Positions 41,582 to 60,766 of a stretch of DNA of 64,000 nt are shown here, one piece after another (position 1 is the first letter of the stretch; every line of letters begins with the position of its first letter). The notes under the pieces are model-generated. The model saw only the letters and a list, made by a program, of their open reading frames with translations. It searched no databases and was not told the DNA's origin. Made by a program: the position numbers and the translations under genes. This DNA comes from Escherichia coli. GTDB taxonomy: Bacteria; Pseudomonadota; Gammaproteobacteria; Enterobacterales; Enterobacteriaceae. The stretch lies in NCBI RefSeq assembly GCF_044324785.1, contig NZ_CP172127.1; one strand, given 5' to 3'.

Positions 41582-41640
41582 TCCTTGCGGCCGGGCGTGG
41601 GAAGCGCTTTCTCGCCTCCGGGGGAAATACCCATAAATTA
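41560..41640 (+). pseudogene. N-terminal stub of a MobA/MocA-like nucleotidyltransferase
   Basis: ATG 41560 follows GGAGGA and encodes MPAPVVLILAAGRGKRFLASGGNTHKL. This is the typical (L)AAGxGxRF...KL signature, after which similarity stops. It overlaps the paoD 3' end by 22 nt. Confidence 0.5.
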
Positions 41641-41692
41641 AGAGAAAAATCTGCAGTAGCCGTTTTAGAAAATCACCTAAATCGTTTAAAAG

Positions 41693-41716
41693 AGCGCCCA
41701 ACCCATAGTGGGCGCT
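41693..41716 (-). terminator. terminator of the MFS transporter gene
   Basis: Stem agcgccca / tgggcgct. On the minus strand it is followed by a T-run (ctctttt), 45 nt after the stop at 41761. Confidence 0.6.
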
Positions 41717-41760
41717 TATCGCCTTGTGTAACTTATTCAGCAACGCGCGCCCTCGCCGGA

Positions 41761-45453: not shown

Positions 45454-45690
45454 ATGAAAACTGATCATCATCGTTGTTTTTGTTGCAATAGTAGAATACG
45501 CGTATTTATTCCTCCATCTCTATTAATAACGGCAATAAACTGTTCACTTCACTGATATTTAAAATATACATCCTTTTCAAGCTGTTCAGCGGCGTAAGAA
45601 AAAGTATTAATTATGAATTCGACGATTTAACCATTTCTGGCTGATTGGTAATCATCTGTGATTAATGCTGGTCTATTGATTACGCCAGCA
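45454..45690 (+). pseudogene. degenerate paralogous copy of the ykgR ... rpmJ2 3' end ... terminator locus
   Basis: 45457-45573 aligns with 26155-26270 (about 90 percent identity by eye). 45581-45690 aligns with 26961-27070 (about 70-75 percent). The ykgR-like frame has lost 29 nt after ATGAAA. Confidence 0.7.
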
Positions 45691-46600
45691 CCCTCTCTAG
45701 CTTATTCACCGCCGCCACATACTTCGCCGGATTTTTATCTTTCAGCACCGCCAGATTACGTTGCTTCCAGCGAATAGCCGGAAGATGCTGAATTTCAGGA
45801 TAGCGATACCGCGACCAGTCAGGGCTGTTTTGCTTAAAACTGAGCAAGAACTCGCGATCCAGATCCGTAAGATGTGACTTCAACGCCTGCGGCAGCAAAG
45901 TCGTTACTGACAGCAGCGATTCCAGCGACGTTTCCTGCTGAGTCATCCCCGAAAATTCCTGAGCATACAGCGTCGTGATCCGCTCTGTATCCCAGTTTGG
46001 GGCCAGCAACTCGGCAATGGGGCGGGGATGGCCTGCCAGATAACAAAGAAAACCGTCAAAGATCTCCCGCATCAGTCCCGGTTTCTCCAGCATATTCAGC
46101 ACATCAAACAGATCGCGCGGGTGCTGACGATCAAGCGCTGCGCAGATTTTACCGCCATAAAGATCCGCCAGCGAGACGACACTCATGGTGGTGAAGCCAT
46201 ACTCCATTTCCACACGTTCGCACACAGGCATTTCTGCCGGAGGCAACAACAGCCCGCGCCAGACCGGGCTAACCTCGATCTTAATCTTTGCATCAGCGGT
46301 ATTCACAATGATGCGCTTTTCATCCGCTTTATTTTCCTGCCGAATCGCGGTGATCCCCGGTCTGCCGTTCAGCGATGCAGTAATCCTCTTCAAAGCGTCG
46401 TTGATAGCCGCCAGATCAGTATCGCGATCCGCAAAGCTCTTATACGCCAGATCAATATCCACCGACAGACGGGGAAAATCCTGCACAAACAAATTGATTG
46501 CCGTGCCGCCTTTCAACGCGAAACAGGACTCCTTCGCCACATGCGGCAGAGCAGCCATCAACAGCTTAACCTGCCGGGCATAACTATCACGCAGATCCAT
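45680..46600 (-). CDS. AbiEii/AbiGii-family nucleotidyltransferase toxin (type IV TA / abortive infection)
   Basis: Typical DUF1814 N-terminus FALKGGTAINLFVQDFPRLSVDIDLAY. 306 aa. It overlaps the upstream partner by 14 nt. Confidence 0.85.
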   Translation of the reverse strand: MDLRDSYARQVKLLMAALPHVAKESCFALKGGTAINLFVQDFPRLSVDIDLAYKSFADRDTDLAAINDALKRITASLNGRPGITAIRQENKADEKRIIVNTADAKIKIEVSPVWRGLLLPPAEMPVCERVEMEYGFTTMSVVSLADLYGGKICAALDRQHPRDLFDVLNMLEKPGLMREIFDGFLCYLAGHPRPIAELLAPNWDTERITTLYAQEFSGMTQQETSLESLLSVTTLLPQALKSHLTDLDREFLLSFKQNSPDWSRYRYPEIQHLPAIRWKQRNLAVLKDKNPAKYVAAVNKLERVLA

Positions 46601-47390
46601 CTTCGACTCCTTCCGGTTTAAATGCGCGTGGAACAGTAATTTGATAATCCGGCTCCAGCCAGCCGCCGGGTATGATTTGCCGCTTTCCCGTACCTGTTTC
46701 TATACCGCTTTGATCAATATACTGAAAATAAGGGTGTCCATTACGCCGGGCAAGGTAAAGCATCACCCGGTTGGTTTTAACCGAATGACTGGCGCAGAGT
46801 AACGCCTGCAATTTACGCGGGCTGAGAAGATTCATCCCCTGAAACAGAGCATCGGCATGTTCGAACGATATCAACGAAGGAACGCCGCAGGCGATCTCAT
46901 ACGCGGCCAGTTCCGGGGCACTGCCTGCTAACTGCCGGTCGCCAATTTTCAGTTCCGTAGTCAATGACGTTACATCTACGGTAAGCCCCGATGTATACAG
47001 CGTGATAAATGTTGCAGATTGTTCGAAGGCAGCAAACCATCCCGGCAGCTTAACGTAAGCCGGAAGCGCGAGCCAGACCTGCGGCTTACCCGGTTCGGTA
47101 TAGTGCGCATGGCCCTGAAACGCAAGGCTGGTTAGCCCCGCCACCCGAACAGGCTTTTCCCACTGTGTTTGAAGGCAGTAAACCGCGTCTACCCAATCCG
47201 GCTCACGGCCCGTCCGGCAGTACACGCCGTGAGCGATGCGCCTGAGCCAGCCATTTTGAACATAGAGATAAGAAAGCTTACGATCTACGCCGTTGCGGGT
47301 AAGCCATGACTGGAGCAGCACCTGACCGGGTAGCGTATTTTGCATCAACCAGTTTAGATAGTTTGGCAAATGTCGCTCCTGAATAGACAT
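46587..47390 (-). CDS. AbiEi-family antitoxin / transcriptional regulator
   Basis: 267 aa with an N-terminal winged-helix region containing WLRRIAHGVYCRTG. It lies upstream of, and is translationally coupled to, the nucleotidyltransferase. Confidence 0.8.
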   Translation of the reverse strand: MSIQERHLPNYLNWLMQNTLPGQVLLQSWLTRNGVDRKLSYLYVQNGWLRRIAHGVYCRTGREPDWVDAVYCLQTQWEKPVRVAGLTSLAFQGHAHYTEPGKPQVWLALPAYVKLPGWFAAFEQSATFITLYTSGLTVDVTSLTTELKIGDRQLAGSAPELAAYEIACGVPSLISFEHADALFQGMNLLSPRKLQALLCASHSVKTNRVMLYLARRNGHPYFQYIDQSGIETGTGKRQIIPGGWLEPDYQITVPRAFKPEGVEDGSA

Positions 47391-47652
47391 TAGTAGAAAT
47401 ATTTAAACCAGTGTAGGTTCAGGGATACGCCACAGCAAGAAATAGTTTACTTATTCCTCATTTTGTCTACTTAAAATTGACATTGAGAAAAAAATACAAA
47501 CTTACCTACATTCAGGCAAAGTGCGACAAATAGACTCGGTCGGTTTAAAGAGAACGTGTAACATAGATGCAAATCGAATAGACATTGTTGCCAGCCGTTC
47601 CAAGGTTGTGGGGCGCTGCATGGCCTGAGACGTGATAAATACAGGGAACACA

Positions 47653-50600
47653 ATGAAATTCACTGAAGATACCCGAGTAAAAATCCCCGTCATCCTCCAC
47701 CTGATACGGCTGGGCTACCACTACCTGTCCCTTAAAGAACAACGCTGGGACAAAGAAACCAATATCTTCCCTGACCTCTTCACCGCTGCGATTGGCAGAA
47801 TAAATCCCGGACTTGTGCCAGACGACATCGGACGCCTGTTAAAAGACCTCACGCTGCTTCTCGACAACGATGATCTGGGCCGCGCCTTCTTCGAAAAACT
47901 CAGTGACCGTTCCGGTATCAAACTGATCGACTTTGATAACTTCAACAACAACAGTTTCCATGTCGTCACCGAACTGACCTGCGAAAACGGTGATGAAGAA
48001 TTCCGCCCGGACATCACGCTGCTGATCAACGGCATGCCGCTAATCTTTATCGAAGTGAAAAAACCCAACAATCGGGAAGGCATCGTCGCAGAACGCAACC
48101 GCATCAACGAACGCTTTAAAAACCCCAAATTCAAACGCTTCGCCAACATCACCCAGTTCATGATCTTCTCCAATAACATGGAGTATGACGACAGCGACCC
48201 GGAGCCGATTCAAGGGGCATTCTACGCCAGCAGCTCTTACAGCAACCCGGTATTCAACTACTTCCGCGAAGAAGAACTCTTCAACCTGACCAACTTACTG
48301 AAACCGCTGTCAGAAGAAACCGAAATCGCCGTCCTGAAAGACAACAACCTGGAAGTGATCCGCACCAACCCGGAATTTCAGACCAACAAAGATCACAACC
48401 GCCCGACAAACCGCCTCTGCACCGCGCTGTTGAGCCGGGATCGGCTGGCATTTATCCTGCGCTATGCGCTGGTGTATGTAGCCGAACCGGGCGGCATCCA
48501 AAAACACATCATGCGCTACCCGCAGCTCTTCGCCACCAAAGCGATTGAGCGCAAACTGAACGCTGGCGTGAAAAAAGGCATTATCTGGCACACCCAGGGC
48601 AGTGGGAAAACCGCATTGGCATACTACAACGTGCGCTTCCTGACAGATTACTTCCAGAATCAGCAGGTGATCCCGAAATTCTACTTTATTGTCGATCGTC
48701 TTGATCTGCTCCAGCAGGCGCAGCGTGAATTCACCGCCCGTGGCTTAATCGTTCACCTTATCGACTCCCGCGAAGCCTTCACCCGCGATATCAAAGCGAC
48801 GCAGGCGCTGCACAACCACCACGGCAAAGCGGAAATCACCGTCGTCAACATCCAGAAATTCCGCGATGACCCGGATGTCGTCACCACCAAAGACTACGAC
48901 ATCAACATCCAACGCGTGTACTTCCTCGATGAAGTCCACCGCAGCTACAACCCCAAAGGGAGCTTCCTGGCGAATTTAAGCCAGTCGGACACCAACGCCA
49001 TCAAAATTGGCCTGACCGGTACGCCTCTGCTGGGCACAGACTACAACTCCCGCGACCTCTTCGGCGACTACATCCACAAATACTACTACAACGCCTCCAT
49101 TGCCGACGGCTACACGCTGCGCCTGATCCGTGAAGAGATCGCCACCAACTACCGGATGATCCTGCAACAGGCGCTAAAAGACGTAGAAGTCAGAATGGGC
49201 GATGTGGATCGCAAAGACATCTACGCCCATCCCAGTTTCGTCAAACCGATGCTGAACTACATCGTCACCGACTTTGCCAAAAGCCGGGGCGCACTGAATG
49301 ATGACACCATCGGCGGCATGGTGATTTGCGACAGCTCAGAACAGGCCAAGCAGATGTTTGAGATATTCAACACTGACTACGCCGAATCGCCCACCGCTGC
49401 CGATGACGTCGCCGAAGAAATGCCGGTATTACAGGCCGCAGAGCCTGCCGCCGTTTACCAGATCCACGCCAAAGAAACGCGGAAAATCAAACGCGCCGCC
49501 CTGATCCTGCACGACGTCGGCAGCAAGCAGGAGCGCAAAGAATGGGTGGATCAATTCAAAGCGGGCGAGATTGACCTGCTGTTCGTCTACAACATGTTGC
49601 TCACGGGCTTTGACGCCAAACGGCTAAAAAAACTCTACCTCGGGCGGGTGATCAGAAAGCACAACCTGCTCCAGGCGCTGACCCGCGTCAACCGAACCTA
49701 CAACCACTTCCGCTACGGCTATGTGGTGGACTTCGCCGACATCCGCCAGGAATTTGACGCCACCAACAAAGCCTACTTCGAAGAGCTACAGGCTGAACTG
49801 GGCGATGAAATGGAGCATTACTCCCGCCTGTTCAAATCAGCGGATGAGATTCGCGAAGAAATCGAACATATCAAAGACGTTCTGTTTAGCTTCGATACCG
49901 AAAACGCGGAAATCTTCACTGACCAGATAAACCAGATCCATGACCGGGAAACCGCGCTGGTACTGAAAAACGCGCTGGCCGACGCCCGCAGCCTGTACAA
50001 CCTGATTCGCCTCCAGGGCAACACTGAGTTTCTCCAGGCGCTGGATTTCAACAAACTCAACATCCTTTACCGCGAAGCCAGCCGCCGCCTCGACTTACTC
50101 AACCTGAAGGCGGATCTGGAACAGGGTGTTGACCTCTCCGGCCTGCTGAACCGGGCGCTGGAAGAGGTGATCTTTGAATTCCACAAAGTGGGCGAAGAAG
50201 AGCTGGTACTGGCCGACGAGCTGAAAGAGACGCTGCGCCGCACCCGCGAAGCGCTGGCCGCCAACTTCGACCAGCAGGACCCGCAGTTCGTCAGCCTGAA
50301 AGACGAACTGGAGCGTCTGTTTAAGAAAAAGAAACTCAGCGAAGTCACCCAGCAAGAAATGGTTGCGAATATCGGCACACTCAATAAAATTCATGGCCGC
50401 ATCAAAGAGCTAAACCGCCAAAATAACCTGCTGCGCCAGAAATACCGTGGCGACGTGAAATACGCGCGTACCCACAAACGCCTGCGCGAGCGCGGCGGCC
50501 TGAGCGAGCCGGAGCGTAAAATCTTCGAAGCACTGCTTGGCGTTAAGCTGGATGCGGATGAAAAAGTGCTGAATAACAGCCAGATACTGAACAACGAAAG

Positions 50601-50751
50601 CTATTTTGAGCGGCAGATTGTGTCATGTGTACTCGATCACTTTGAACAACAGCAGCACATCACCCTGAGTGCGAAAGCGGCTGGCGACATCAACCGCCTG
50701 ATTGTGGCGGAATACCTGAACGAATTTAATACCGGAGCACGTACGTGGTAG
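47653..50751 (+). CDS. hsdR: type I restriction enzyme R subunit HsdR
   Basis: N-terminal PD-(D/E)xK nuclease motif (RPDITLLINGMPLIFIEVKK), and helicase motifs GSGKT and DEVH. Start at ATG 47653 (MKFTEDT). Confidence 0.9.
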   Translation: MKFTEDTRVKIPVILHLIRLGYHYLSLKEQRWDKETNIFPDLFTAAIGRINPGLVPDDIGRLLKDLTLLLDNDDLGRAFFEKLSDRSGIKLIDFDNFNNNSFHVVTELTCENGDEEFRPDITLLINGMPLIFIEVKKPNNREGIVAERNRINERFKNPKFKRFANITQFMIFSNNMEYDDSDPEPIQGAFYASSSYSNPVFNYFREEELFNLTNLLKPLSEETEIAVLKDNNLEVIRTNPEFQTNKDHNRPTNRLCTALLSRDRLAFILRYALVYVAEPGGIQKHIMRYPQLFATKAIERKLNAGVKKGIIWHTQGSGKTALAYYNVRFLTDYFQNQQVIPKFYFIVDRLDLLQQAQREFTARGLIVHLIDSREAFTRDIKATQALHNHHGKAEITVVNIQKFRDDPDVVTTKDYDINIQRVYFLDEVHRSYNPKGSFLANLSQSDTNAIKIGLTGTPLLGTDYNSRDLFGDYIHKYYYNASIADGYTLRLIREEIATNYRMILQQALKDVEVRMGDVDRKDIYAHPSFVKPMLNYIVTDFAKSRGALNDDTIGGMVICDSSEQAKQMFEIFNTDYAESPTAADDVAEEMPVLQAAEPAAVYQIHAKETRKIKRAALILHDVGSKQERKEWVDQFKAGEIDLLFVYNMLLTGFDAKRLKKLYLGRVIRKHNLLQALTRVNRTYNHFRYGYVVDFADIRQEFDATNKAYFEELQAELGDEMEHYSRLFKSADEIREEIEHIKDVLFSFDTENAEIFTDQINQIHDRETALVLKNALADARSLYNLIRLQGNTEFLQALDFNKLNILYREASRRLDLLNLKADLEQGVDLSGLLNRALEEVIFEFHKVGEEELVLADELKETLRRTREALAANFDQQDPQFVSLKDELERLFKKKKLSEVTQQEMVANIGTLNKIHGRIKELNRQNNLLRQKYRGDVKYARTHKRLRERGGLSEPERKIFEALLGVKLDADEKVLNNSQILNNESYFERQIVSCVLDHFEQQQHITLSAKAAGDINRLIVAEYLNEFNTGARTW

Positions 50752-50909
50752 AACTGTAATTTAGAGATAAAACCAAAACCCTGATCGACAGCCTGAAAAG
50801 CATCTGTGCGAACTACGGCCTGGGCAACGACGGTAACGAATTCAAAATTATCACTCAGGCATTCCTGTACAAATTCCTGAACGACAAATTCGCCTTTGAA
50901 GCCAAAAAG

Positions 50910-52382
50910 GTGGATAAAAGCATCGCCAGCGCCGAAAAATGGGAAGTCGCGCTCAATCAGATGAGCGAAGAACAGCGGGATAAACTGCAACTGAAGATGA
51001 GCGCCGACACTGCGCGTCTGAAGCCGCATCACTTCATTCAGTATTTATACAACCGTCAAAATGAGGCCAATTTCGCCACCACCTTTGACGACACCCTGAT
51101 GGACATCGCCGCCACCAACAACGACGTCTTCGCGGTCAAAACTGACGGCGGCGCGAAAGTGGTGCTGTTTGAGCGCCTCAGCCAGTACATCGCCGACGAA
51201 TCAAGGCGCGACGACTTCTGCCGCGCCATTATCAACAAACTGGCCGATTTCAGCTTCGAGCGCATCTTCACGCAGAAATTCGACTTCTACGCCACTATCT
51301 TTGAATACCTGATCAAAGACTACAACAGCAACTCCGGCGGCAAATACGCGGAATACTATACGCCCCACGCCGTGGCGCGCATCATGGCGGAAATCCTGGT
51401 GCCGAAAGCACAACAGGGCGTAGTGCGCAACGTAAGCTGTTACGACCCGTCCGCCGGTTCCGGCACCTTACTGATGAACGTGGCGCACGCCATCGGGGAA
51501 GATCGTTGCAGCATCTTCGCGCAGGACATCTCGCAGAAATCCTCCAGCCTGCTGCGCCTGAACCTGATCCTCAACAATCTGGTGCATTCGATCCCCAACG
51601 TGATTCAGGGCAACACCATTCTGCACCCGTTCCACAAGGACGGCAGCGCGCTGAAACGCTTTGACTATATCGTCTCTAACCCGCCGTTTAAGATGGATTT
51701 CAGCGATTTCCGCGACGATTTGGATAGCAAGGAAAACCAGCAACGTTTCTTTGCCGGGATACCAAAAATCAAAGCCAAAGCCAGGGACAAAATGGAAATT
51801 TACCAGTTGTTCCTGCAACACATCATTTTCTCGCTGAAACCGGATGGTAAGGCGGCGGTCGTGGTGCCGACCGGGTTTATCACCGCGCAGTCGGGCATTG
51901 ATAAAGGGATTCGCGAACATCTGGTGAAAAACAAGATGCTGGCGGGTGTGGTTTCCATGCCGTCGAATATCTTCGCCACCACCGGCACTAACGTATCGAT
52001 CCTGTTTATTGACGCCAGCAACAAAGAGAAAGTGGTGCTGATCGACGCCTCGAATTTAGGTGAAAAGGTCAAAGACGGCAAAAACCAGAAAACGGTGCTG
52101 ACCGAAGAAGAAGAGCAGCGCATCTGCGAAGTGTTCAACAACAAGTGGAGCGAAGAGGATTTCTCGGTGGTGGTCAGCTATGACGAGATCGCCGGGAAAA
52201 ATTACTCGTTCAGCGCCGGGCAGTATTTCGATGTGAAAATTGAATACACCGATATGACGCCGGAACAGTTTGCCGCGAAGATGAACGGGTTTACGGAGAA
52301 TCTGGAGAGTTTGTTTAGCCAGTCGCGCGAGCTGGAGGTGGAGATTAAAAAGCAGATGGCGGGGCTGAATTTCCATGGTTAA
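50910..52382 (+). CDS. hsdM: type I R-M methyltransferase subunit HsdM (start codon problematic, see findings)
   Basis: AdoMet motif DPSAGSGTLL and catalytic NPPF. The reading frame is open and HsdM-N-like from 50760, but the first canonical start is GTG 50910. Confidence 0.8.
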   Translation: MDKSIASAEKWEVALNQMSEEQRDKLQLKMSADTARLKPHHFIQYLYNRQNEANFATTFDDTLMDIAATNNDVFAVKTDGGAKVVLFERLSQYIADESRRDDFCRAIINKLADFSFERIFTQKFDFYATIFEYLIKDYNSNSGGKYAEYYTPHAVARIMAEILVPKAQQGVVRNVSCYDPSAGSGTLLMNVAHAIGEDRCSIFAQDISQKSSSLLRLNLILNNLVHSIPNVIQGNTILHPFHKDGSALKRFDYIVSNPPFKMDFSDFRDDLDSKENQQRFFAGIPKIKAKARDKMEIYQLFLQHIIFSLKPDGKAAVVVPTGFITAQSGIDKGIREHLVKNKMLAGVVSMPSNIFATTGTNVSILFIDASNKEKVVLIDASNLGEKVKDGKNQKTVLTEEEEQRICEVFNNKWSEEDFSVVVSYDEIAGKNYSFSAGQYFDVKIEYTDMTPEQFAAKMNGFTENLESLFSQSRELEVEIKKQMAGLNFHG

Positions 52383-53493
52383 AACTATTGGTGATGCTTG
52401 TAATATTAGTACAGGTAAACTTGATGCAAACCAGGCTGTAAAAGGTGGTGATTATCCGTTTTTTACGTGCGCAGAGTTCCCTGAACAAATCGATCATTAT
52501 GCATTTGACGGCGATGTGGTTCTTATTGCTGGCAATAATGCAAGAGGAAACTTTCACGTAAGCAGGTATCAAGGGAAATTTAATGCTTACCAGCGAACCT
52601 ATGTGCTTACAGCCAAACATGGTTATGATATTGATTATATTTACTATGCCTTAAGACTTGAATTAAAGCGATTGCGAGAAAAATCTCAAGGCTCGCAAAC
52701 AAAGTTTCTGACAATGCCGATTTTGACCAGTATATCGCTAGGAAACCTAGTCGAGACTGAACAATCGACAGTTTCAAGAGTATTAAAAATACTGGATAAA
52801 AAAATCGCTCTCAACAATCGTATCAACGCCGAGCTGGAAGCGATGGCGAAAACACTGTATGACTACTGGTTTGTACAGTTTGATTTCCCTGATGCCAACG
52901 GAAAACCGTATAAAACCTCCGGCGGGAAGATGGTGTACAACGCCACGCTGAAACGGGAAATTCCGGCGGGGTGGAATATTAAAAATCTTGGCGATATAGC
53001 GGAACTATATCAGCCTAAGACCATTTCAGGTAACGATTTTATTGATGATGGTGAATATCTTGTATATGGAGCCAACGGTATTGTAGGAAGATTCAATAAA
53101 TATAACCATGAAGAACCTGTCGTTACAATCACCTGCCGTGGAAATACGTGCGGCAATATAAACGTCACACGACCATATTCATGGATTACAGGGAATGCAA
53201 TGGTGGTTAAGCCAAAGTTTAACTATATTTCACCTTATTATATTTATAATTTATTGTCGATATCGGAAGTTGATAAAGTCATTACTGGCTCTGCTCAACC
53301 TCAAATTACGCGAGCAAACCTAGCTCCACTTAAGGTTGTTGAACCAGCAGAGGACATTACGCAAAAATACTCAAAGTCTGTTGATGCTTTTTTTAAAAAG
53401 CATATCTCAATATTAGATGAAAATGATAATTTATTAAAACTCCGCGACTGGCTCCTCCCCCTGCTTATGAACGGACAGGTCACGGTCAAATAA
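52375..53493 (+). CDS. hsdS: type I R-M specificity subunit HsdS (two target-recognition domains)
   Basis: Its ATG overlaps the hsdM stop. It has two low-GC TRDs separated by the conserved spacer LDKKIALNNRINAELEAMAKTLYDYWFVQFDFP, and a conserved C-terminal LRDWLLPLLMNGQV. Confidence 0.85.
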   Translation: MVKTIGDACNISTGKLDANQAVKGGDYPFFTCAEFPEQIDHYAFDGDVVLIAGNNARGNFHVSRYQGKFNAYQRTYVLTAKHGYDIDYIYYALRLELKRLREKSQGSQTKFLTMPILTSISLGNLVETEQSTVSRVLKILDKKIALNNRINAELEAMAKTLYDYWFVQFDFPDANGKPYKTSGGKMVYNATLKREIPAGWNIKNLGDIAELYQPKTISGNDFIDDGEYLVYGANGIVGRFNKYNHEEPVVTITCRGNTCGNINVTRPYSWITGNAMVVKPKFNYISPYYIYNLLSISEVDKVITGSAQPQITRANLAPLKVVEPAEDITQKYSKSVDAFFKKHISILDENDNLLKLRDWLLPLLMNGQVTVK

Positions 53494-53632
53494 TCCCCGC
53501 CGTGTTTTGCGAGGCGCATTCCAGATCCACATTGCGCCGCGCTCACCGCTGTAAAACCGCTTGCCGTTCATAACCGATCGAAGTATCTTTCTCCCGCGCC
53601 TGCAAAATCAGGCGTCGGGATTAGCCTCCTGA

Positions 53633-53645
53633 AAACCGTTACAGG
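53633..53645 (+). promoter_or_regulatory. upstream target repeat (seqA-like) of the antisense RNA
   Basis: AAACCGTTACAGG; its CGTTACAGG is complementary to RNA loop nt 53739-53747. A GATTAGCCTC repeat (53619-53628) precedes it. Confidence 0.55.
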
Positions 53646-53700
53646 CGACACTTGACGCACCAGCGTCTTTTTTGTGTCGTGCGTTCGGCTACACCTCAAT

Positions 53701-53782
53701 GGCGGGCCGGGCGGGGGCGTCGCAAGACGCGCCGGTTTCCTGTAACGCCGGTAAGGCTAACCCCGTCCGGTTCCGCCACCCA
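53701..53782 (+). ncRNA. tRNA-like antisense regulatory RNA of the phage P1 C4 / P4 CI type
   Basis: Hand-folded structure. The long terminal stem pairs 53701-53716 with 53761-53777 (one bulge). A GCAA-tetraloop hairpin spans 53717-53730. A second hairpin (53731-53752) has a 12-nt loop, UUUCCUGUAACG. The 3' tail is ACCCA. The loop is complementary to both flanking repeats. Confidence 0.6.
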
Positions 53783-53813
53783 TGAGATTAGCCTCTCTAG
53801 TGGCGGACATAAT

Positions 53814-53829
53814 AAACCGTTACAGGAGA
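53814..53829 (+). promoter_or_regulatory. downstream target repeat (seqC-like) overlapping the SD of the 156-aa ORF
   Basis: CGTTACAGGAGA (53818-53829) can pair with all 12 loop nucleotides (one G-U pair). It contains AGGAG (53824-53828), 7 nt before ATG 53836. Confidence 0.55.
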
Positions 53830-53835
53830 TGCCCT

Positions 53836-54306
53836 ATGGCTACAATCCTCACCCCTGACTGCGATTTACTCGATCTGTTATCCGTTCCCTTCAATGCCAC
53901 CACGGATTTTACTGTCCTTGCCGATTACTGCACCCGCTTCGCCGAAACCCTGATAGAAACCGACGATCCCGCGCTGCGGCTGGCGCTGAGCGGACGGCTT
54001 CACGCGGCTCTTGCGCTACTGCAACCCACACTGCATGACCCCATCCCGCCGCATCTTACCGAAAGCCTGACCGTTAATACCCTTCCCGCCACACCAGAGC
54101 ACTTTATTTCCGAACCCGATTCCTTGTGCGAATACTGCCTCGCACTGCTCCAGCTTCTGCTGGAACGCCCGGCGGAGCCAAAAATGGAGCAAACCCTGAC
54201 CGGGCTGCTGTGTGAGCTGGTCTGGAATTTCACGGAAGGACTCAAATCCCCGCGCTGGCTGCGTACCGCCGACGGCGTAAAATTTATCAGTGAGGTGGCC
54301 GCATGA
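53836..54306 (+). CDS. hypothetical acidic Leu-rich protein, 156 aa, no recognisable domain
   Basis: ATG with a good SD. It starts [15 protein letters not shown]... No TM segment or signal peptide. Its stop overlaps the start of the next (broken) gene. Confidence 0.6.
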
Positions 54307-54449
54307 TGCAACAGGACTGGCATTCCACCGACATTATCGCCACGCTGAAAAAGCGGGGAACGTCTCTGGCGGCGCAGAGAAAAACTCATTGCGGACGCGC
54401 TGTAAATATCGTCAGAAATCATCTGGCCTTCAAGGTACTTTGATAGCAA
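54303..54449 (+). pseudogene. Ner/Nlp-like small DNA-binding protein, internally deleted and interrupted
   Basis: The N-terminus [24 protein letters not shown] resembles Ner/Nlp. The characteristic C-terminus (S)EI(I)WPSRYF appears only in another frame, after a stop. Confidence 0.55.
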
Positions 54450-54451
54450 AG

Positions 54452-54655
54452 GCAAGCAGGCTGGTTCAGTCCCGTGTTTCTCTTCTTGCATTTTCAGAAA
54501 TGGGAGGCTGGGAGTCTATCGAAATGGTTCGTCGATATGCTCACCTCGCACCTAATCACCTTACCGAACACGCACGGCAAATAGACTCGATCCTGAACCC
54601 ATCGGTCCCAAATTTGTCCCAGTCAAAAAATAAGGAAGGTACTAATGATGTGTAA
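54452..54655 (+). pseudogene. C-terminal ~67 codons of a lambdoid (P22-type) tyrosine integrase
   Basis: [37 protein letters not shown] contains the catalytic-Tyr box (RYAHL). There is no N-terminal or core domain upstream. It ends 14 nt before the att core. Confidence 0.75.
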
Positions 54656-55044: not shown

Positions 55045-55716
55045 ATGGTGATTGATGCAATGTTAAGCGTTCAGATGACTCCACAAGCAAAAGTTAGCTT
55101 CGAGGAGCAATGTTTTTTTCATGCTTCATGTCTTGTTGTTGCCCCAATAAATGTTGGAGCATTCTCCTACTTTGGCGCTAATTGTATGCTCGGCGGCTTT
55201 ACGATGGGTAGATTTTGTTCAGTTGCTCCAGGAGTAAAAATTGGCCTTGGCGAGCATGAAACTGGGTATTTTTCTACGCATCCTTTTTTCTTTGGCTCAA
55301 AAAATGGTTTTAAAATCCCTGATGGTATAGGAATGCAACGCGACCTCTCTCAACAGAAGCATGGTATACCAAGAATTGGTCATGACGTATGGATAGGTGC
55401 AAATGCGGTTATCAGGCGAGGTATAACTATTGGTACTGGCGCTGTTATTGCTGCTGGCGCTATTGTCACCAAAAATGTCGATCCATATTCAATCGTAGGT
55501 GGCGTTTCTGCAAAACACCTAGGGTACAGATTTGAGGAATCAATCATCAAAGAGTTACTGGATAGCCAATGGTGGGAATATGATTTAAGCTCATTTATTG
55601 GGATTGATACAAGGACACCGACGACTTTTTTAGAGCAGTTTAATGCTGTAAAAGATAAAAAGAAGGCATCTTATAAGAGATTTACAATTCTTCCATCCGG
55701 TGAAATTGTTGAATAG
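55045..55716 (+). CDS. XAT-class hexapeptide-repeat acetyltransferase (CatB/Vat-like)
   Basis: [66 protein letters not shown] and the C-terminal [11 protein letters not shown] fit the xenobiotic acetyltransferase pattern. The start codon is uncertain (weak SD). Confidence 0.75.
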
Positions 55717-55735: not shown

Positions 55736-58105
55736 TTAAATAAACATAAGAATAAACATCAGAAGTTCTTCGTATCTGATACCATACTGATAGCCAGCAG
55801 GTTTAATAATAACCTGCCTTCCTGTGTAATATTCCTCGTCGTACCACTCTCCTGTTTCATTGTTTTTAACACTCCTAATCAATACCTCTGGAGCATAAAT
55901 ATCATCCCATTCATCATAACACCAGAACGCATAGTTATTAGGGTCAAGACCGTATTTTCTGAGAATATTACCTACAGTTTGTGCACCAACGCCGAAATGA
56001 ATCCGAGCGCCATCACTCTTGATCTTTACTGCATCTTTAAATTTAAACCTCCAGATATTTTCCTTTATTTCAAGCGCAGCAAGACGCTCTGATTCTGTTG
56101 TTTTCTCGTCAGCCTCAATACGCAATTTCAGCTCTTCATTCGACGTGTTGATACTGCCAGTACCAGCGTATACCTGTGACCATCGAAATGCTGATGTTCC
56201 GTTTGAGTTAACATTATCAACAGTTGGTTTTATAAGGCCAGAAAAATGAGTTTCAGGTGTATTAATATATGTATATGCACCTGCTGTACTACGAGTCCTT
56301 AACTCAAAGCTGTCTATATCAACACCAGTCCTACGAATTATAAGGAAGTTATTTCCTGCGGAACCAGTATCGGTTTGAGTGCTAACAGACAATCCGTTTC
56401 GTGTATCAATACGTATATTCTTCCCGTTCTCCAGCGAAGCAGAATTATGTAGATACAGCGAGTTGTCAGTGTAGAGATTGTGTTTACCTACATTGCTAAA
56501 TGTATAAGTATTGCTTGTGTTATCACTGTTCCTATGGAATTGCTGAAGAGTGTAGGCAGAAGATGCTCCGTATCCATCACAATGGAAATTTCTGCACAGC
56601 TGCAAATCGAATAACAATACGGTGTCAGCATTAATGCTCACATTATTAAAGCATGTTGCAAAGTTGGCACCATACTGTGAATTGGAATCGCCAATCTGTG
56701 CGCACACATCAAGCAAACCAAAAGTTACATTGGTAAAGTTATTTGCATCACCGGCGTCAAGAACAATCCCTTTCTTAGTCCCTGAATACCCTCTGGCAGT
56801 GCCGATCTCAACTCCCTGGAATGAACACACGCGAGCACGACTAAGCTTAAGACCAACCCATTCCAGACCATGATCGTAACCTTTTGCTGCGCGGTGAATA
56901 AACATACCATTCATGATGAGAAGGAATCTGTTATCAAGCCGTACTGGTTCAAGTTGGGCATTAATACCAACATTTGTGCATATACATTCACCATAAGCAT
57001 AACGATTCGTTTCAAATATACGATCATCAGCGTCGTAAATGCCTCGTAATGCCTTGGCGGCATCAATATTAAGCAATGTAAAATATGTCTTCTGCTTAAT
57101 TTCAAAAAAATTTGCAACATTATGCGTTGTGATATCACTCACACGCATTGATAAAATCCCCTCTTCTGGAGCGGTGCGAATGAATCCATCAAGGAACTGT
57201 TCATTATAACTTTTGGCTATCTGATAACATCCAACAGCATCAATGCGTTCGATTGTGAACTGCCAACTATCACCACAGTTAAAAGACCATCTCCAGCCGT
57301 ATTTCTGAGCGAATTCATCATATTCAACATTTGCAGGTTCAGAACAGAAAGATAAAAATCTAAATGTTGGTTTTGGCCTTAGATGGTTAATCCCGGAACC
57401 TCTTGGGGTATATATGGCATTATCTCCATTCCCACCTTTTGTTTTAACTGTAAGGTGACTTAAACCAAATTCAATATCATATTTAGTTGGTGCGGCGAAA
57501 ACAAAGCCGTCTTTTGGTGATGTGGTATTGTCAAACACAATAACCGTTTCACCCTGCCCATCACCGCACATATTTACTGGTGGTATATTAACGGGGCCAG
57601 TCAAACTATATGTTCCAGTTGGCACATATAGTTTTCCACCCTCTCCAATAGCATTTGCCGCTGCAATAAATGCCGCCGTATCATCGTTAACACCGTCACC
57701 TTTCGCCCCATAATGCTGTGGCGTAATTAACAGCATACGGTCAGAAAAAATCTCTGTCCTAAGTTGATCAGGATCGTATTTTAATACATTTGGAAAATAA
57801 AACTGCTGAGTGCCATATGCATCATATACAGCCATAGAATGGCCTTGCACGGTAACGAATTTGGCAATCTGTCCGTTATATACCGGATAACCAGCAGCGT
57901 TAATAATGATTGGTTGAGAAACAGGAACGTGAGAACCGTCTTCGTTCTCTACATAAACCGGAATCTGGTTTTCAGGATTTACCGGGTCAGTGTCAATTTT
58001 ACCGATATAAATTTTTCCATTAGCATTTGCTTTAAACGAGCGAGCTAAAGTGAATAACTGACTTGGTTGTGAAACAACAACATTGGCATTTATTGAATCT
58101 GTCAT
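55736..58105 (-). CDS. tailspike: P22 gp9-type head-binding domain + pectate-lyase-like beta-helix depolymerase + C-terminal intramolecular chaperone (peptidase S74-like) domain
   Basis: The N-terminus [18 protein letters not shown]...[26 protein letters not shown]...[13 protein letters not shown] is nearly the P22 gp9 N-domain. [19 protein letters not shown] is a beta-helix signature. The C-terminal part has NTSNEELK (Ser-x4-Lys) and a chaperone-like tail. Confidence 0.9.
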
Positions 58106-58204: not shown

Positions 58205-59083
58205 TCAGTAGTTATGTACTGAAGGAGGTAATTCTTTATTCTTAAGTCTCATCCATGCGGAAATATTCGTTGGTCCGTCTGGCTCATTAATATCAACATC
58301 TCGTGTGTGATTGATTAAAACGTCTCTCGCCATTCCGATAACATACGAGAATTCATGACCGTAGTCGTAGCATCTGCCGGAATAGTTCGATTGAATTTGT
58401 TTCAGCGCCGGATACAGTTCGCGGAATAATGCCTGTGAGCGGTTGGCATAATCCCATAACCATACAAGGCTGTTTGCTTCTTTTGCAGAAAGCTCGTTGG
58501 TTTTCTTCTCTTGTTTGCCAATGAACTCACCTTCAAGCACTACCCTGTGGATGTACTCTACGGCCAGCGGGATTTGTTCAATTGAAAGTTCATCAATGCT
58601 GTCAATACCAAAACGCTGATGAACCATATTGTATGCATCGTCATAGCGAAGTCCTTTCTTTCCTACCAGCATGTTTACTGCATCGCGTAGCGGTGTTCTT
58701 TCCTCAACAGTGGTTTTCTTTCCTTTTACATACTCGCCATGTTTGCGAATTGAAGGCAGAACTTCTGCTGTTACCCACTTGCGGAATTTGTGCGGGACTG
58801 AACCTTTATTGACTGCATCGCGGCAGCGCAGAACCAATGTATACATACCTGATTCGCTCACAATGCTTAGATTCTGCTCACCACCAAGGGTGTAACTTAA
58901 AGTTACTCCCTTTTCATCGTCATCAAGTGCAGTAAGCGCCTTGCGTGAGTTAGTCAAATCTAAAGCATCACAAACATCTTTAGCTACAAACCACGGCTCA
59001 CCGCACTTGTTGATGACGCGGATTTCACTGTCGCCGAATTTGAAGATGGTGAAATCGTTTTGTGCCTTTGCTATACTTTTCAT
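58205..59083 (-). CDS. ant: antirepressor Ant (Bro-N + KilA-C type)
   Basis: [28 protein letters not shown]...[11 protein letters not shown] is a Bro-N domain. It is immediately downstream of arc, as in P22 immI. Confidence 0.9.
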
Positions 59084-59151
59084 GTCAATATTTCCTAATC
59101 CGATTTGTTGATGCCGAAGCCCTGACTGTTACAGCAGTTGGGGCTTCAACT
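59084..59151 (+). ncRNA. possible sar-type antisense RNA covering the arc-ant intercistronic region
   Basis: The 68-nt arc-ant spacer is the size recalled for P22 sar RNA. It contains a hairpin, gaagccc...gggcttc. Promoter and ends were not verified. Confidence 0.3.
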
Positions 59152-59709: not shown

Positions 59710-60766
59710 GGCTTTGTTGAATAAATCGAACTTTTGCTGAGTTGAAGGATCAGATCACGTATCTTCCCGACAACGCAGACCGTTCCGTGGCAAAGCAAAA
59801 GTTCAAAATCACCAACTGGCCCACCTACAATAAAGCCCTCATCAACCGTGGCTCCATAACTTTCTGGCTGGATGATGAAGCTATTCAGGCCTGGTATGAG
59901 TCAGCAACACCTTCTTCACGAGGCAGACCTCAGCGCTATTCTGACCTTGCCATCACTACTGTGCTGGTCATTAAACGCGTATTCAGGCTGACCCTGCGGG
60001 CTGCGCAGGGCTTTATTGATTCCATTTTTTCTCTGATGAACGTTCCGCTACGCTGCCCGGATTACAGCTGTGTCAGCAGGCGGGCAAAGTCGGTTAATGT
60101 CAGTTTCAAAACGCCCACCCGGGGTGAAATCGCACACCTGGTAATTGATTCCACCGGGCTGAAGGTCTTCGGTGAAGGCGAGTGGAAAGTCAAAAAGCAT
60201 GGCCAGGAACGCCGCCGTATCTGGCGTAAGCTGCATCTCGCCGTTGACAGTAAAACACATGAAATCATCTGCGCTGACCTGTCGCTGAACAACGTTACGG
60301 ACTCAGAGGCCTTCCCCGGGTTAATCCGGCAAACCCACCGGAAAATCAGGTCAGCCGCCGCCGATGGCGCTTACGATACCCGGCTATGTCACGATGAACT
60401 GCGGCGTAAGAAAATCAGCGCGCTTATCCCTCCCCGAAAAGGTGCGGGTTACTGGCCCGGTGAATATGCAGACCGTAACCGTGCAGTGGCTAATCAGCGA
60501 ATGACCGGGAGTAATGCGCGGTGGAAATGGACAACAGATTACAACCGTCGCTCGATAGCGGAAACGGCGATGTACCGGGTAAAACAGCTGTTCGGGGGTT
60601 CACTGACGCTGCGTGACTACGATGGTCAGGTTGCGGAGGCTATGGCCCTGGTACGAGCGCTGAACAAAATGACGAAAGCAGGTATGCCTGAAAGCGTGCG
60701 TATTGCCTGAAAACACAACCCGCTACGGGGGAGACTTACCCGAAATCTGATTTATTCAACAAAGCC
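59710..60766 (+). mobile_element. IS903/IS102-type insertion sequence (IS5 family), 1057 bp
   Basis: Perfect 18-bp terminal inverted repeats GGCTTTGTTGAATAAATC, flanked by a 9-bp direct duplication GTGCTGAGC (59701-59709 and 60767-60775). Confidence 0.95.
59787..60710 (+). CDS. IS903-type transposase (DDE)
   Basis: A GTG start giving (M)AKQKFKITNWPTYNKALINRGS yields 307 aa, as recalled for IS903 Tnp. The track ORF begins 15 codons earlier at TTG. Confidence 0.9.
   Translation: MAKQKFKITNWPTYNKALINRGSITFWLDDEAIQAWYESATPSSRGRPQRYSDLAITTVLVIKRVFRLTLRAAQGFIDSIFSLMNVPLRCPDYSCVSRRAKSVNVSFKTPTRGEIAHLVIDSTGLKVFGEGEWKVKKHGQERRRIWRKLHLAVDSKTHEIICADLSLNNVTDSEAFPGLIRQTHRKIRSAAADGAYDTRLCHDELRRKKISALIPPRKGAGYWPGEYADRNRAVANQRMTGSNARWKWTTDYNRRSIAETAMYRVKQLFGGSLTLRDYDGQVAEAMALVRALNKMTKAGMPESVRIA

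What the first reader, a model, noticed from the sequence alone, without database searches (positions are those of the whole stretch)
53619..53838. tRNA-like antisense RNA (P1 C4 / P4 CI type) flanked by two copies of its own target, the second covering the SD of an unknown ORF
Between hsdS and a 156-aa ORF lies a ~80-nt GC-rich segment (53701-53782) that I can fold by hand.
- Terminal stem: 16 bp (53701-53716 with 53761-53777), with one bulged U.
- Hairpin 1: 5 bp with a GCAA tetraloop (53717-53730).
- Hairpin 2: 5 bp (53731-53752) with the 12-nt loop UUUCCUGUAACG.
- 3' tail: ACCCA immediately after the terminal stem, resembling a tRNA acceptor end, the feature that makes C4/CI RNAs RNase P substrates.
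The loop is complementary to CGTTACAGG, which occurs twice in direct repeats AAACCGTTACAGG (53633-53645 and 53814-53826). Each repeat is preceded by GATTAGCCTC (53619-53628 and 53786-53795). At the downstream copy all 12 loop nucleotides can pair (CGTTACAGGAGA), and this covers AGGAG, the SD for ATG 53836. This is the architecture of phage immunity RNAs: P4 seqA-CI-seqC, and P1 c4 upstream of icd-ant. Here the regulated gene is unknown and the module sits directly next to AbiE and type I R-M genes. A weak sigma70-like promoter candidate (TTGCCG-17-TATCTT, 53561-53589) lies upstream.
Basis: partly seen in the sequence, partly recalled or inferred. Interest (0 to 1): 0.78.

Follow-up and report, generated by a model that had tools for sequence, protein, structure and literature searches.

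The report
C4-type antisense RNA immunity cassette
This is a complete copy of a well-known phage-type regulatory RNA (the P1 c4 / P4 CI family) with its promoter, decoy leader and target sites; it sits at the edge of an E. coli defence island and most likely keeps an uncharacterised 156-aa protein switched off.

Summary
Rfam's C4 antisense RNA model matches 53695-53783 at 79.9 bits (threshold 45). The isrK / c4-a1b1 leader model matches 53596-53673 directly upstream. Phage P4's own CI RNA and seqA region hit the same two models.

In 20 related loci the three C4 helices covary (99% paired, 16 of 28 pairs compensatory). The two single-stranded elements also co-vary with both flanking target copies. 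b2 covers the AGGAG Shine-Dalgarno sequence of ATG 53836.

The regulated gene belongs to an uncharacterised Enterobacterales family under purifying selection. In intact relatives it is translationally coupled to a Ner-like regulator, which is a pseudogene here. The locus is the GI-thrW island, found in about 1,000 complete E. coli genomes.

This is a new member of a known kind, of modest interest. Two side observations deserve follow-up: the same cassette drives unrelated, often toxic cargo (SymE, Icd, antirepressors), and it marks the fixed edge of variable defence cargo.

The parts
53561..53589 (+). Sigma-70 promoter of the cassette: -35 TTGCCG (53561-53566), 17-nt spacer, -10 TATCTT (53584-53589). 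The inferred transcription start is about 53596.
   Evidence: -35 TTGCCG/TTGACG and -10 TATCTT/TATATT/TATTGT sit at the same distance from the isrK model start in all 20 loci, while the spacer and the upstream DNA diverge. The generic promoter scan did not list it (below its 9/12 cut-off).
53596..53673 (+). Leader RNA, a homologue of Salmonella IsrK, the Rfam c4-a1b1 motif and P4 seqA. It contains hairpin 1; hairpin 2 (53616-53631), which displays a1 (53621-53627) in its loop; single-stranded b1 (53637-53645); and an intrinsic terminator (stem 53654-53667 plus the U-run 53668-53673).
   Evidence: isrK 68 bits (GA 50); c4-a1b1 43.8 bits (GA 46.7); terminator-like site; the T-run is invariant in 20 loci; a1-a' pairs in 100% of cells and b1-b' in 95.7%, with compensatory changes.
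53695..53783 (+). C4-family antisense RNA; the mature species is probably about 53700-53782. P1 stem 53700-53716/53761-53778; P2 hairpin 53717-53730 (GCAA loop); P3 hairpin 53731-53752 carrying the b' loop 53736-53747; a' junction 53754-53760; 3' tail CCCA.
   Evidence: RF01695 79.9 bits, model positions 1-87 of 87; dG -51.7 kcal/mol, z = -4.0; 99.1% of cells paired, 16 of 28 pairs with changes on both sides, 0 of 500 shuffles as good.
53784..53797 (+). Small hairpin GAGA-UUAGCC-UCUC presenting target a2 (53788-53794) in its loop.
   Evidence: a'-a2 pairs in 99.3% of cells, 5 of 7 pairs compensatory. helix 4: 3 of 4 stem pairs covary.
53800..53806 (+). GTGGCGG, complementary to the 3' strand of the C4 terminal stem (CCGCCAC, 53773-53779). 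This is an alternative pairing available in the unprocessed read-through transcript.
   Evidence: helix 3: 99.2% paired, 2 pairs compensatory; the MFE fold of the full 265-nt transcript uses this stem and pairs b' with b2 in cis.
53818..53829 (+). Target b2 (CGTTACAGGAGA), which includes the Shine-Dalgarno AGGAG (53824-53828) of ORF156.
   Evidence: I2: 10/10 complementary; 12 pairs with one G-U by inspection; duplex -19.1 kcal/mol, 0 of 1000 shuffled targets as good; 9 of 10 pairs have compensatory changes across loci.
53836..54306 (+). Regulated ORF of 156 aa. It belongs to an uncharacterised Enterobacterales family predicted to form a helical bundle with a C-terminal beta-hairpin.
   Evidence: 409 homologues, all 'hypothetical'; no Pfam, PHROG, NCBIfam or PADLOC hit; dN/dS 0.12-0.38; model pLDDT 82.8, no informative fold match.
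54303..54443 (+). Remnant of a Ner/SfsB-like HTH_35 gene. Its start overlaps the ORF156 stop (ATGA). It is disrupted by an internal deletion and frameshift.
   Evidence: only the first ~20-25 profile positions match; the 5' and 3' parts align to intact genes with about 60 nt missing. PGAP calls it a pseudogene in strain N3. Intact 73-84-aa genes are present.
54452..54655 (+). 3'-terminal fragment of an integrase gene, at the end of the island next to the thrW attachment site.
   Evidence: Phage_integrase profile positions 137-171 only; annotated as a partial integrase directly before tRNA-Thr in E. coli O25b and N3.

Best explanation
The segment 53561-53835 is a complete immunity cassette of the P1 c4 / P4 CI type, placed in front of a 156-aa ORF.

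1. A conserved sigma-70 promoter starts transcription near 53596.
2. Most transcripts should stop at the leader terminator (about 53673). This gives a roughly 77-nt IsrK-like RNA that carries decoy sites a1 and b1.
3. Read-through transcripts contain the tRNA-like C4 RNA, which is excised, by RNase P at its 5' end in P1/P7.
4. C4 uses its junction a' (AGGCUAA) and hairpin loop b' (UUUCCUGUAACG) to pair with a2 (a hairpin loop just downstream) and with b2.
5. b2 contains the Shine-Dalgarno sequence of ATG 53836, so translation of ORF156 is blocked. By coupling and polarity, so is expression of the Ner-like gene that follows it in intact elements.
6. The short leader RNA competes for a'/b' and can relieve the block, so the ratio of leader to C4 sets the switch.

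Shown here: family membership, the RNA structure, co-evolution of both pairing elements with all four target sites, overlap of b2 with the SD, conservation of the promoter and terminator, and that ORF156 is a real gene.

Inferred from P1/P7, P4 and Gifsy-1: processing, the trans action, the decoy role and the polarity.
For: - **Rfam:** hits above gathering score for C4 and isrK. The same pair of hits falls on P4 CI/seqA and on all 19 other loci examined.
- **Structure covariation:** 99.1% of cells paired, 16 of 28 compensatory pairs, 0 of 500 shuffles as good; slid controls give 35-50% paired.
- **Intermolecular covariation:** there are 15 distinct b' loops and 7 distinct a' junctions. In 19 of 20 loci each finds a perfect complement of at least 7 nt at fixed positions in both flanks, against 18 of 370 (b') and 8 of 324 (a') for cross-locus combinations. 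Column counts give a'-a1 100%, a'-a2 99.3%, b'-b1 95.7% and b'-b2 84% paired, with 5-9 compensatory pairs each.
- **Specificity swap:** E. whittamii has identical stems but swapped a'/b' together with all four targets.
- **Duplex energy:** b'-b2 is -19.1 kcal/mol, 0 of 1000 shuffles as good.
- **Conserved signals:** the SD GGAGG and the ATGGCTAC start are conserved. The promoter is conserved in position. The terminator T-run is invariant.
- **Experimental precedent:** in Gifsy-1 (PMC4825925), IsrK G28/G31 pair with C162/C159. These numbers fall in a1 (+24 to +33) and a' (+159 to +165) when counted from 53596. A stable ~80-nt processed RNA (STnc1160) lies downstream of IsrK, and short IsrK activates translation in trans.
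- **Published model:** the a1b1/a2b2 competition model is stated in the Weinberg 2010 supplement.
Against: - There are no expression or processing data for this locus.
- The 3' tail is CCCA rather than CCA.
- The a'-a2 duplex is only 7 bp, and its energy alone is not exceptional (80 of 1000 shuffles as good); support for it comes from covariation only.
- The operon is decayed after ORF156, so the switch may control little here.
- The Gifsy-1 authors read the homologous stretch as a translated orf45 coupled to the next gene. Here that ORF stops after 28 codons, 50 nt before ATG 53836, so that part of their model does not carry over.
- P4 CI acts through transcription termination. Translation block and termination cannot be told apart from sequence.
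Confidence: 0.85

Rival explanations
1. The module is an evolutionary relic. It is structurally intact but no longer has a physiological role, because the element it belonged to has lost its Ner-like regulator and integrases.
For: The Ner-like gene is a pseudogene and only the last ~35-68 codons of an integrase remain. No tRNA or intact recombinase lies on this side of the island in the window.
Against: Promoter, terminator, all three helices, a'/b' and all four targets are intact. ORF156 is full length with dN/dS 0.12 against the E. coli O25b and E. whittamii alleles. The same truncated arrangement persists in about 1,000 complete E. coli genomes.
Confidence: 0.2
2. The region encodes a small protein rather than an RNA. 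This is the PGAP 'ash family protein' / Pfam Phage_ASH reading, or orf45 of Gifsy-1. Regulation would then work through translation of this upstream ORF coupled to the next gene.
For: PGAP annotates an 'ash family protein' CDS over the C4 gene in E. coli O25b. Pfam Phage_ASH positions 49-93 match translations that start at the conserved AUG at the 5' end of C4. An orf45-SPA fusion was detected in Salmonella (PMC4825925).
Against: - In the window this ORF is 28 codons long, scores below the Pfam cut-off (18.7 against 26) and ends 50 nt before ATG 53836 (sequence).
- C4 lengths in the 20 loci differ by non-multiples of 3 (83-89 nt), so no reading frame is conserved.
- Substitutions are compensatory for RNA helices.
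- A single-base deletion creates the longer ORF in O25b.
Confidence: 0.05
3. The main job of the island-borne C4 RNA is in trans. It would silence antirepressor or other a2/b2-bearing genes of incoming or co-resident phages and elements that share its specificity, as a form of RNA-based cross-immunity that fits its position among defence genes.
For: - c4 is the secondary immunity factor of P1/P7 and acts in trans (PMC12197685).
- a'/b' are hypervariable in a way typical of immunity specificities.
- The same b' core (CCUGUAAC) occurs in an E. kobei phage-plasmid and in other islands.
- The cassette is widespread in Stx, SfV and P1-like phages in front of antirepressor or icd genes.
Against: - No viral contig carries the window's combined a2 + b2 specificity. 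The 4 pattern matches lack any C4 or isrK hit and look like chance.
- No second target site exists in the window.
- The loci that share b' differ in a'.
Confidence: 0.1

Closest known systems
c4 antisense RNA of phages P1 and P7 (immI operon c4-icd-ant; Rfam RF01695 with the a1b1 motif RF03163)
   Same: - The Rfam family is the same, and so is the three-helix tRNA-like fold.
- There are two single-stranded elements, a' and b'.
- Target copies a1/b1 lie upstream and a2/b2 downstream on the same transcript.
- b2 lies over the ribosome-binding site of the first downstream ORF.
- A P1-like plasmid copy aligns throughout, including the SD and start codon.
   Different: - The downstream genes are not icd-ant but an uncharacterised 156-aa ORF plus a (here defective) Ner-like gene.
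- The host element is a decayed tRNA-associated island, not a plasmid prophage.
- No C1-type operator was looked for.
- RNase P processing is untested here.
CI RNA / seqA-seqB-seqC immunity of satellite phage P4
   Same: P4 CI hits the C4 model (74.9 bits) and P4 seqA hits the isrK model (60.8 bits), in the same order and strand relation. Both are on elements that integrate with P4-type integrases at tRNA genes.
   Different: - In P4 about 107 nt separate the two hits, against 21 nt here.
- P4 CI is described as causing premature transcription termination of the replication operon.
- P4's downstream genes (epsilon, orf151, alpha) are unrelated to ORF156.
- The cassette is on the opposite strand relative to the integrase compared with P4.
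IsrK - orf45 (STnc1160) - anrP of Salmonella prophage Gifsy-1 (PMC4825925)
   Same: - The leader family is the same (isrK model, 68 bits).
- The leader has its own terminator and partial read-through.
- A stable processed RNA of about 80 nt lies directly downstream.
- The experimentally verified pairing between leader positions 28/31 and positions 162/159 corresponds to a1-a' here.
- The short leader acts in trans as an activator.
   Different: - The Gifsy-1 cargo is an antirepressor-like AnrP that turns on the antiterminator AntQ.
- The authors invoke translation of orf45 coupled by AUGA to anrP.
- Here the corresponding ORF is 28 codons and is not coupled to ORF156, which has its own SD inside b2.
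sar RNA / ant of phage P22 (a copy lies in the same window at 59085-59151)
   Same: It is a small antisense RNA that restrains an antirepressor gene in a secondary immunity region.
   Different: sar is a true cis-antisense transcript from the opposite strand with full complementarity. C4 is encoded on the same strand as its target and pairs through two short elements.
Type I toxin-antitoxin systems such as SymR/SymE
   Same: A small RNA occludes the ribosome-binding site of an adjacent gene that is harmful when expressed. In a K. pneumoniae ICE the very same isrK-C4 cassette precedes a SymE_toxin-domain ORF.
   Different: Toxicity of ORF156 is not known. C4 is co-transcribed with its target rather than made from an overlapping antisense promoter.

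Membership tests
C4 antisense RNA (Rfam RF01695; includes P1/P7 c4 and P4 CI) | The covariance-model score reaches the curated gathering threshold over the full model. | tested here: met
   79.9 bits against 45, model positions 1-87 of 87, E = 4.8e-14.
C4 antisense RNA (Rfam RF01695; includes P1/P7 c4 and P4 CI) | A long terminal stem encloses two hairpins; the first hairpin is often capped by a stable tetraloop. | tested here: met
   The MFE fold matches the model. Across 20 loci 99.1% of cells are paired and 16 of 28 pairs are compensatory. The GCAA (GNRA) loop fits the Weinberg 2010 description.
C4 antisense RNA (Rfam RF01695; includes P1/P7 c4 and P4 CI) | Two single-stranded elements, a' and b', are complementary to a1/b1 upstream and a2/b2 downstream on the same strand. 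| tested here: met
   (19 of 20 loci match their own targets; cross-locus matches are rare). Searches give 84-100% pairing with compensatory changes.
C4 antisense RNA (Rfam RF01695; includes P1/P7 c4 and P4 CI) | b2 overlaps the ribosome-binding site of the first downstream ORF. | tested here: met
   AGGAG 53824-53828 lies inside b2 (53818-53829), 7 nt before ATG 53836. GGAGG plus ATG is conserved in the 20-locus alignment.
C4 antisense RNA (Rfam RF01695; includes P1/P7 c4 and P4 CI) | The RNA is excised from a longer precursor by RNase P, giving a stable species of about 77 nt. | not testable with these tools
   Only the tRNA-like stem and the 3' CC(C)A tail can be seen. The processing precedent is Hartmann et al. 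1995, as cited in PMC4919922.
P1-type immI operon (c4-icd-ant) | The regulated genes are icd and an antirepressor. | tested here: not met
   ORF156 has no Pfam, PHROG, NCBIfam or PADLOC match and no informative fold match. The next gene is Ner-like.
isrK (RF01394) / c4-a1b1 (RF03163) leader | Two hairpins with a1 in the second loop, b1 just 3' of it, and a terminator; the model score is above threshold. | tested here: met
   isrK 68 bits against 50. c4-a1b1 43.8 bits against 46.7, just below threshold. Terminator-like site. The a1 hairpin is 93% paired.
P4-type immunity (CI-mediated premature transcription termination) | Antisense pairing causes termination of the downstream operon rather than only a block of translation. 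| not testable with these tools
   No intrinsic terminator was found between C4 and ORF156. Rho-dependent polarity cannot be assessed from sequence.
Ash protein family (Pfam PF10554), the PGAP annotation of the homologous stretch | A protein match above the Pfam gathering score, in a conserved reading frame. | tested here: not met
   The window ORF 53699-53785 scores 18.7 against 26. The frame is not conserved across loci, whose lengths range from 83 to 89 nt.
tRNA gene or pseudogene | A cloverleaf detected by a tRNA finder. | tested here: not met
   ARAGORN finds no tRNA or tmRNA in the window. Rfam gives no tRNA hit there.
Type I toxin-antitoxin system | The regulated protein is toxic and the RNA is required to tolerate the locus. 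| not testable with these tools
   The support is by analogy only: the same cassette precedes a SymE_toxin ORF in a K. pneumoniae ICE and icd in P1-like plasmids.

The most novel reading that the evidence does not exclude
The isrK-C4 unit may be a portable 'safety catch': a self-contained promoter, decoy, antisense RNA and SD/start cassette that recombines in front of unrelated, mostly harmful genes. The cargo seen here includes SymE toxin, Icd, antirepressors and the ORF156-Ner pair.

The recombination joint lies about 10 codons into the ORF. a'/b' diversify like immunity specificities.

On this reading ORF156 (with Ner) is a new growth-arresting or island-inducing effector. The cassette plus ORF156-Ner would be the conserved regulatory anchor of a family of small tRNA-associated islands whose adjacent slot collects defence systems: AbiE, type I R-M, DarTG, Thoeris, TacAT and others.
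Probability: 0.25. Interest if true: 0.6.

Novelty: new member of a known kind. Interest (0 to 1): 0.33.

Why it matters
The RNA itself confirms known biology. C4/CI-type immunity RNAs are common outside intact phages, and a curated model finds them.

The practical value lies in annotation. RefSeq records of about 1,000 E. coli genomes, including the pandemic ST131 clone, carry no RNA gene at this spot. Some instead carry an 'ash family protein' CDS that is most likely a translation of the RNA.

The biological value is a lead. The cassette points to an uncharacterised, conserved ORF156-Ner pair as the thing these defence-carrying islands keep under tight RNA control. It also shows that one cassette is reused in front of toxins and antirepressors, with rapidly diversifying specificity.

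Tried and rejected
- **Function of ORF156.** Pfam, PHROGs, NCBIfam, PADLOC and PDB sequence searches gave nothing. An AlphaFold model (pLDDT 82.8) matched only generic helical bundles in the PDB and BFVD, none with E <= 0.001. The afdb50 library was unavailable. ORF156 shows no similarity to P4 orf151 or to the 159-aa ORF behind the cassette in an E. kobei phage-plasmid, apart from the first 10 residues.
- **A second ORF156 copy.** The 153-aa ORF at 41428-41889 is unrelated.
- **Alternative start ATG 53782 (174 aa, ATGA overlap with the small ORF).** Rejected, because that ATG is not conserved across loci whereas GGAGG-N7-ATGGCTAC is.
- **Trans targets.** There are no further CGTTACAGG or GATTAGCCTC sites in the window. 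A scan of viral contigs for a2-N-b2 of this specificity gave 4 hits with no C4 or isrK nearby, taken as chance.
- **The search for related loci with a single protein.** It returned only 5 genome loci, so further loci came from exact-protein look-ups.
- **Primary papers.** Lobocka 2004 and Hartmann 1995 are not held. The EFASI/STAXI literature search was swamped by an unrelated acronym.
- **Duplex energy for a' and for b'-b1.** Taken alone these were not convincing, so the case for them rests on covariation.
Full report
**1. What is in the sequence**

- The 89 nt at 53695-53783 fold into a long terminal stem (53700-53716 with 53761-53778, one bulged U) that encloses two hairpins.
- Hairpin 1 is 53717-53730 with a GCAA loop. 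Hairpin 2 is 53731-53752 with the loop UUUCCUGUAACG.
- The fold energy is -51.7 kcal/mol, four standard deviations below dinucleotide shuffles.
- The direct repeats AAACCGTTACAGG (53633 and 53814) and GATTAGCCTC (53619 and 53786) exist.
- The hairpin-2 loop is perfectly complementary to both copies of the first repeat: 9 nt upstream and 10 nt downstream.
- Both repeat words are far more frequent in the window than chance allows.
- The downstream copy contains AGGAG (53824-53828), 7 nt before ATG 53836.

It is complementary to AGGCTAA (53754-53760), the single-stranded junction between hairpin 2 and the terminal stem (pair I1).

**2. Which family it belongs to**

Rfam settles the family.
- The C4 antisense RNA model (RF01695) matches 53695-53783 over its whole length at 79.9 bits (gathering score 45).
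- The isrK model (RF01394) matches 53596-53673 at 68 bits (gathering score 50).
- The 'a1, b1 targets of C4' model (RF03163) matches 53583-53635 at 43.8 bits, just under its threshold of 46.7.

The supplement of Weinberg et al. 2010 (PMC2864571) describes exactly this anatomy.
- Elements a' and b' pair with a1/b1 upstream of the RNA and with a2/b2 downstream.
- One of the downstream sites lies over a ribosome-binding site.
- The authors repeat the proposal that a1/b1 compete with a2/b2.
- They note that the RNA occurs in many bacterial genomes.

**3. Comparative evidence**

I collected 19 further loci that carry the cassette.
- Source organisms and elements were E. coli, E. whittamii, Salmonella, Klebsiella, Citrobacter, Enterobacter, Raoultella, Dickeya, Pectobacterium, Brenneria, Acerihabitans, phage SfV, an Stx-type phage, a P1-like plasmid, an E. 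kobei phage-plasmid, a Vibrio plasmid and an Arsenophonus plasmid.
- Every one has isrK and C4 in tandem.

The three helices covary.
- They are paired in 99.1% of cells, and 16 of 28 pairs show changes on both sides.
- No shuffle out of 500 reaches the observed values. Sliding the partner strand drops pairing to 35-50%.

The recognition elements covary with their targets.
- The loci have 15 different b' loops and 7 different a' junctions, in 18 combinations.
- In 19 of 20 loci each element finds a perfect complement of at least 7 nt at the same positions in both flanks. Combinations across loci do so in only 18 of 370 (b') and 8 of 324 (a') cases.
- Counted on a full-length alignment, a'-a1 is paired in 100% of cells, a'-a2 in 99.3%, b'-b1 in 95.7% and b'-b2 in 84%. 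The last figure is lowered by gap placement in the loop. Each has 5-9 compensatory pairs.
- The E. whittamii copy has stems identical to the window but different a' and b', with all four targets changed to match. This is a clean specificity swap like P1/P7 heteroimmunity.

**4. The flanking signals**

The flanks are conserved as part of the same unit.
The DNA upstream of -35 is unrelated between loci.
- The leader ends in a terminator hairpin followed by an invariant T-run.
- a1 and a2 are each displayed in the 6-nt loop of a small hairpin whose stem covaries.
- A further conserved stretch after a2 (GTGGCGG, 53800-53806) can pair with the 3' strand of the C4 terminal stem, and this pairing also covaries. 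The full 265-nt read-through transcript is predicted to use that stem and to pair b' with b2 in cis.
- The SD GGAGG and the start ATGGCTAC are conserved whatever the downstream gene is. An unrelated phage-plasmid ORF shares only its first ten residues (MATTPTQTHP) with the ORF156 family. The cassette therefore ends a few codons inside the regulated gene.

**5. Most likely mechanism**

The most likely mechanism is the P1/P4/Gifsy-1 one.
1. Transcription starts near 53596.
2. Most transcripts end at the leader terminator, giving an IsrK-like RNA with decoy sites.
3. Read-through yields the C4 RNA. In P1/P7 this is cut out by RNase P (Hartmann et al. 1995, cited in PMC4919922).
4. C4 binds a2 and b2 and occludes the SD of ORF156. 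The b'-b2 duplex is -19.1 kcal/mol, with 0 of 1000 shuffled targets as good.
5. The short leader can titrate C4 and relieve the block.

The Gifsy-1 study (PMC4825925) gives experimental support for the homologous RNAs.
- Compensatory mutations showed pairing of IsrK G28/G31 with C162/C159. Counted from 53596, those positions fall in a1 and a'.
- A stable ~80-nt processed RNA (STnc1160) lies just after IsrK.
- Short IsrK activates translation in trans.

That paper treats the C4 stretch as a translated orf45 coupled to the next gene. Here the equivalent ORF (53699-53785) is only 28 codons long and ends 50 nt before ATG 53836, so that feature does not apply.

Processing, trans action and polarity are inferred, not shown.

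**6. The regulated gene**

- ORF156 (53836-54306) is a real gene: dN/dS is 0.12-0.38 against eight homologues.
- It belongs to a family of about 400 clusters confined to Enterobacterales, all unnamed.
- It has no hit in Pfam, PHROGs, NCBIfam, PADLOC or the PDB.
- Its predicted fold, a helical bundle with a C-terminal beta-hairpin, has no informative match.
- In intact relatives its stop overlaps the start of a 73-84-aa Ner/SfsB-like HTH_35 gene.
- In the window that gene has an internal deletion and is followed only by the last part of an integrase gene.

**7. Genomic setting**

- The window is E. coli. The pao region is 99.1% identical to strain N3.
- The locus is the island at tRNA-Thr (thrW) next to proA. 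This is GI-thrW of ST131 (PMC4659465).
- The query stretch 53500-54450 has matches in 1,074 of 5,426 complete genomes, and 813 of them cover at least 80% of it. Two examined genomes, O25b:H4 and N3, show the same arrangement: AbiE, type I R-M, the cassette, ORF156, the HTH and integrase remnants, then tRNA-Thr.
- In the window a P22-like prophage follows instead of the tRNA: acetyltransferase, tailspike, Ant and sar RNA.
- RefSeq annotates no RNA at the cassette. In O25b an 'ash family protein' CDS lies over C4.
- Pfam Phage_ASH positions 49-93 correspond to translation of the C4 gene from its conserved AUG. The frame is not conserved between loci.

**8. Wider pattern**

The cassette plus ORF153/156-Ner recurs as a conserved block. 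In many relatives it is followed by STAXI/EFASI RNA motifs, a 294-aa Integrase_1 protein, a P4-type integrase and a tRNA. The DNA immediately upstream of the promoter is variable and mostly defensive:

| Host | Cargo upstream of the promoter |
|---|---|
| E. coli (this window) | AbiE + type I R-M |
| K. pneumoniae | TacAT + AbiE + DUF4747 |
| Dickeya | type I R-M + DarTG |
| Pectobacterium | Thoeris-like TIR proteins + Fic |
| Raoultella | helicase-PLD, or PemK |
| another E. coli island | Rhs/DUF2169 |

In a K. pneumoniae ICE the same cassette precedes a SymE_toxin ORF. In phages it precedes antirepressor, Rha or icd genes. This suggests, but does not show, that the cassette is a portable catch for harmful genes and that ORF156-Ner is the regulated core of these islands.

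**9. Verdict**

This is a new member of a known kind. Interest is modest for the RNA itself and somewhat higher for the uncharacterised cargo and the island pattern.

Noticed in passing
window 58205-59151: A second antisense-controlled antirepressor module lies in the same window. An Rfam sar RNA hit (59085-59151 +, 65.6 bits) sits directly upstream of a P22-type antirepressor gene (Bro-N + P22_AR_C, 58205-59083 -). This is next to a P22-like tailspike (55736-58105 -) and an acetyltransferase (55045-55716 +). A DDE transposase ORF (59742-60710 +) lies just beyond sar.
   Followed up: partly
window 35552-35752 (-): Full-length Rfam hit to IS009 RNA (189.5 bits against a gathering score of 117).
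   Followed up: no
window 53699-53785; L001 12200-12358; L022 5865-6023: The Pfam 'Ash protein family' (PF10554) and the PGAP 'ash family protein' CDSs correspond to translation of the C4 RNA gene from its conserved 5' AUG (profile positions 49-93). The frame is not conserved between loci, so the family probably describes an RNA gene. In E. coli O25b a 1-nt deletion in the C4 3' strand creates the 52-codon ORF.
   Followed up: partly
L009/L010, L013-L015, L022-L030, L002 (relatives); window 45680-54655: isrK-C4-ORF153/156-Ner forms a conserved block, often followed by STAXI/EFASI RNA motifs, a 294-aa Integrase_1, a P4-type integrase and a tRNA. The DNA directly upstream of its promoter is a variable slot filled with defence or toxin systems: AbiE, type I R-M, DarTG, TIR/Thoeris-like, TacAT, PemK, helicase-PLD, Rhs.
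   Followed up: partly
L003 8045-8578 (K. pneumoniae ICE): The same isrK-C4 cassette, with matching a2/b2 and the ATGGCTAC start, precedes a 97-aa SymE_toxin-domain ORF (PF08845, 63 bits). GenBank annotates one over-long SymE CDS that runs across both RNAs.
   Followed up: partly
L019 2341-2820 compared with the ORF156 family: An unrelated 159-aa ORF behind the cassette in an E. kobei phage-plasmid shares only its first ten residues (MATTPTQTHP) with the ORF153 family. The cassette's 3' recombination boundary therefore seems to lie about 10 codons inside the regulated gene.
   Followed up: partly
L004 5750-6010 (E. whittamii) compared with window 53586-53845: The C4 stems are identical, but a' (GGUCAA against GGCUAA) and b' (CGAUGAG against CCUGUAACG) differ, and all four target sites changed in step. 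This is a recent specificity swap between very close alleles.
   Followed up: yes
window 54303-54655: The Ner-like gene carries an internal deletion of about 60 nt and a frameshift, and only the 3' end of an integrase gene remains. The same scars are in E. coli N3 and O25b, so the decay predates the spread of this island. No tRNA is found in the window, because a P22-like prophage occupies the thrW side.
   Followed up: partly
window 53773-53806: The 3' strand of the C4 terminal stem (CCGCCAC) can alternatively pair with GTGGCGG downstream of a2. The pairing covaries across loci and is used in the MFE fold of the unprocessed transcript. No U-run follows it, so it is not an intrinsic terminator here.
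   Followed up: partly
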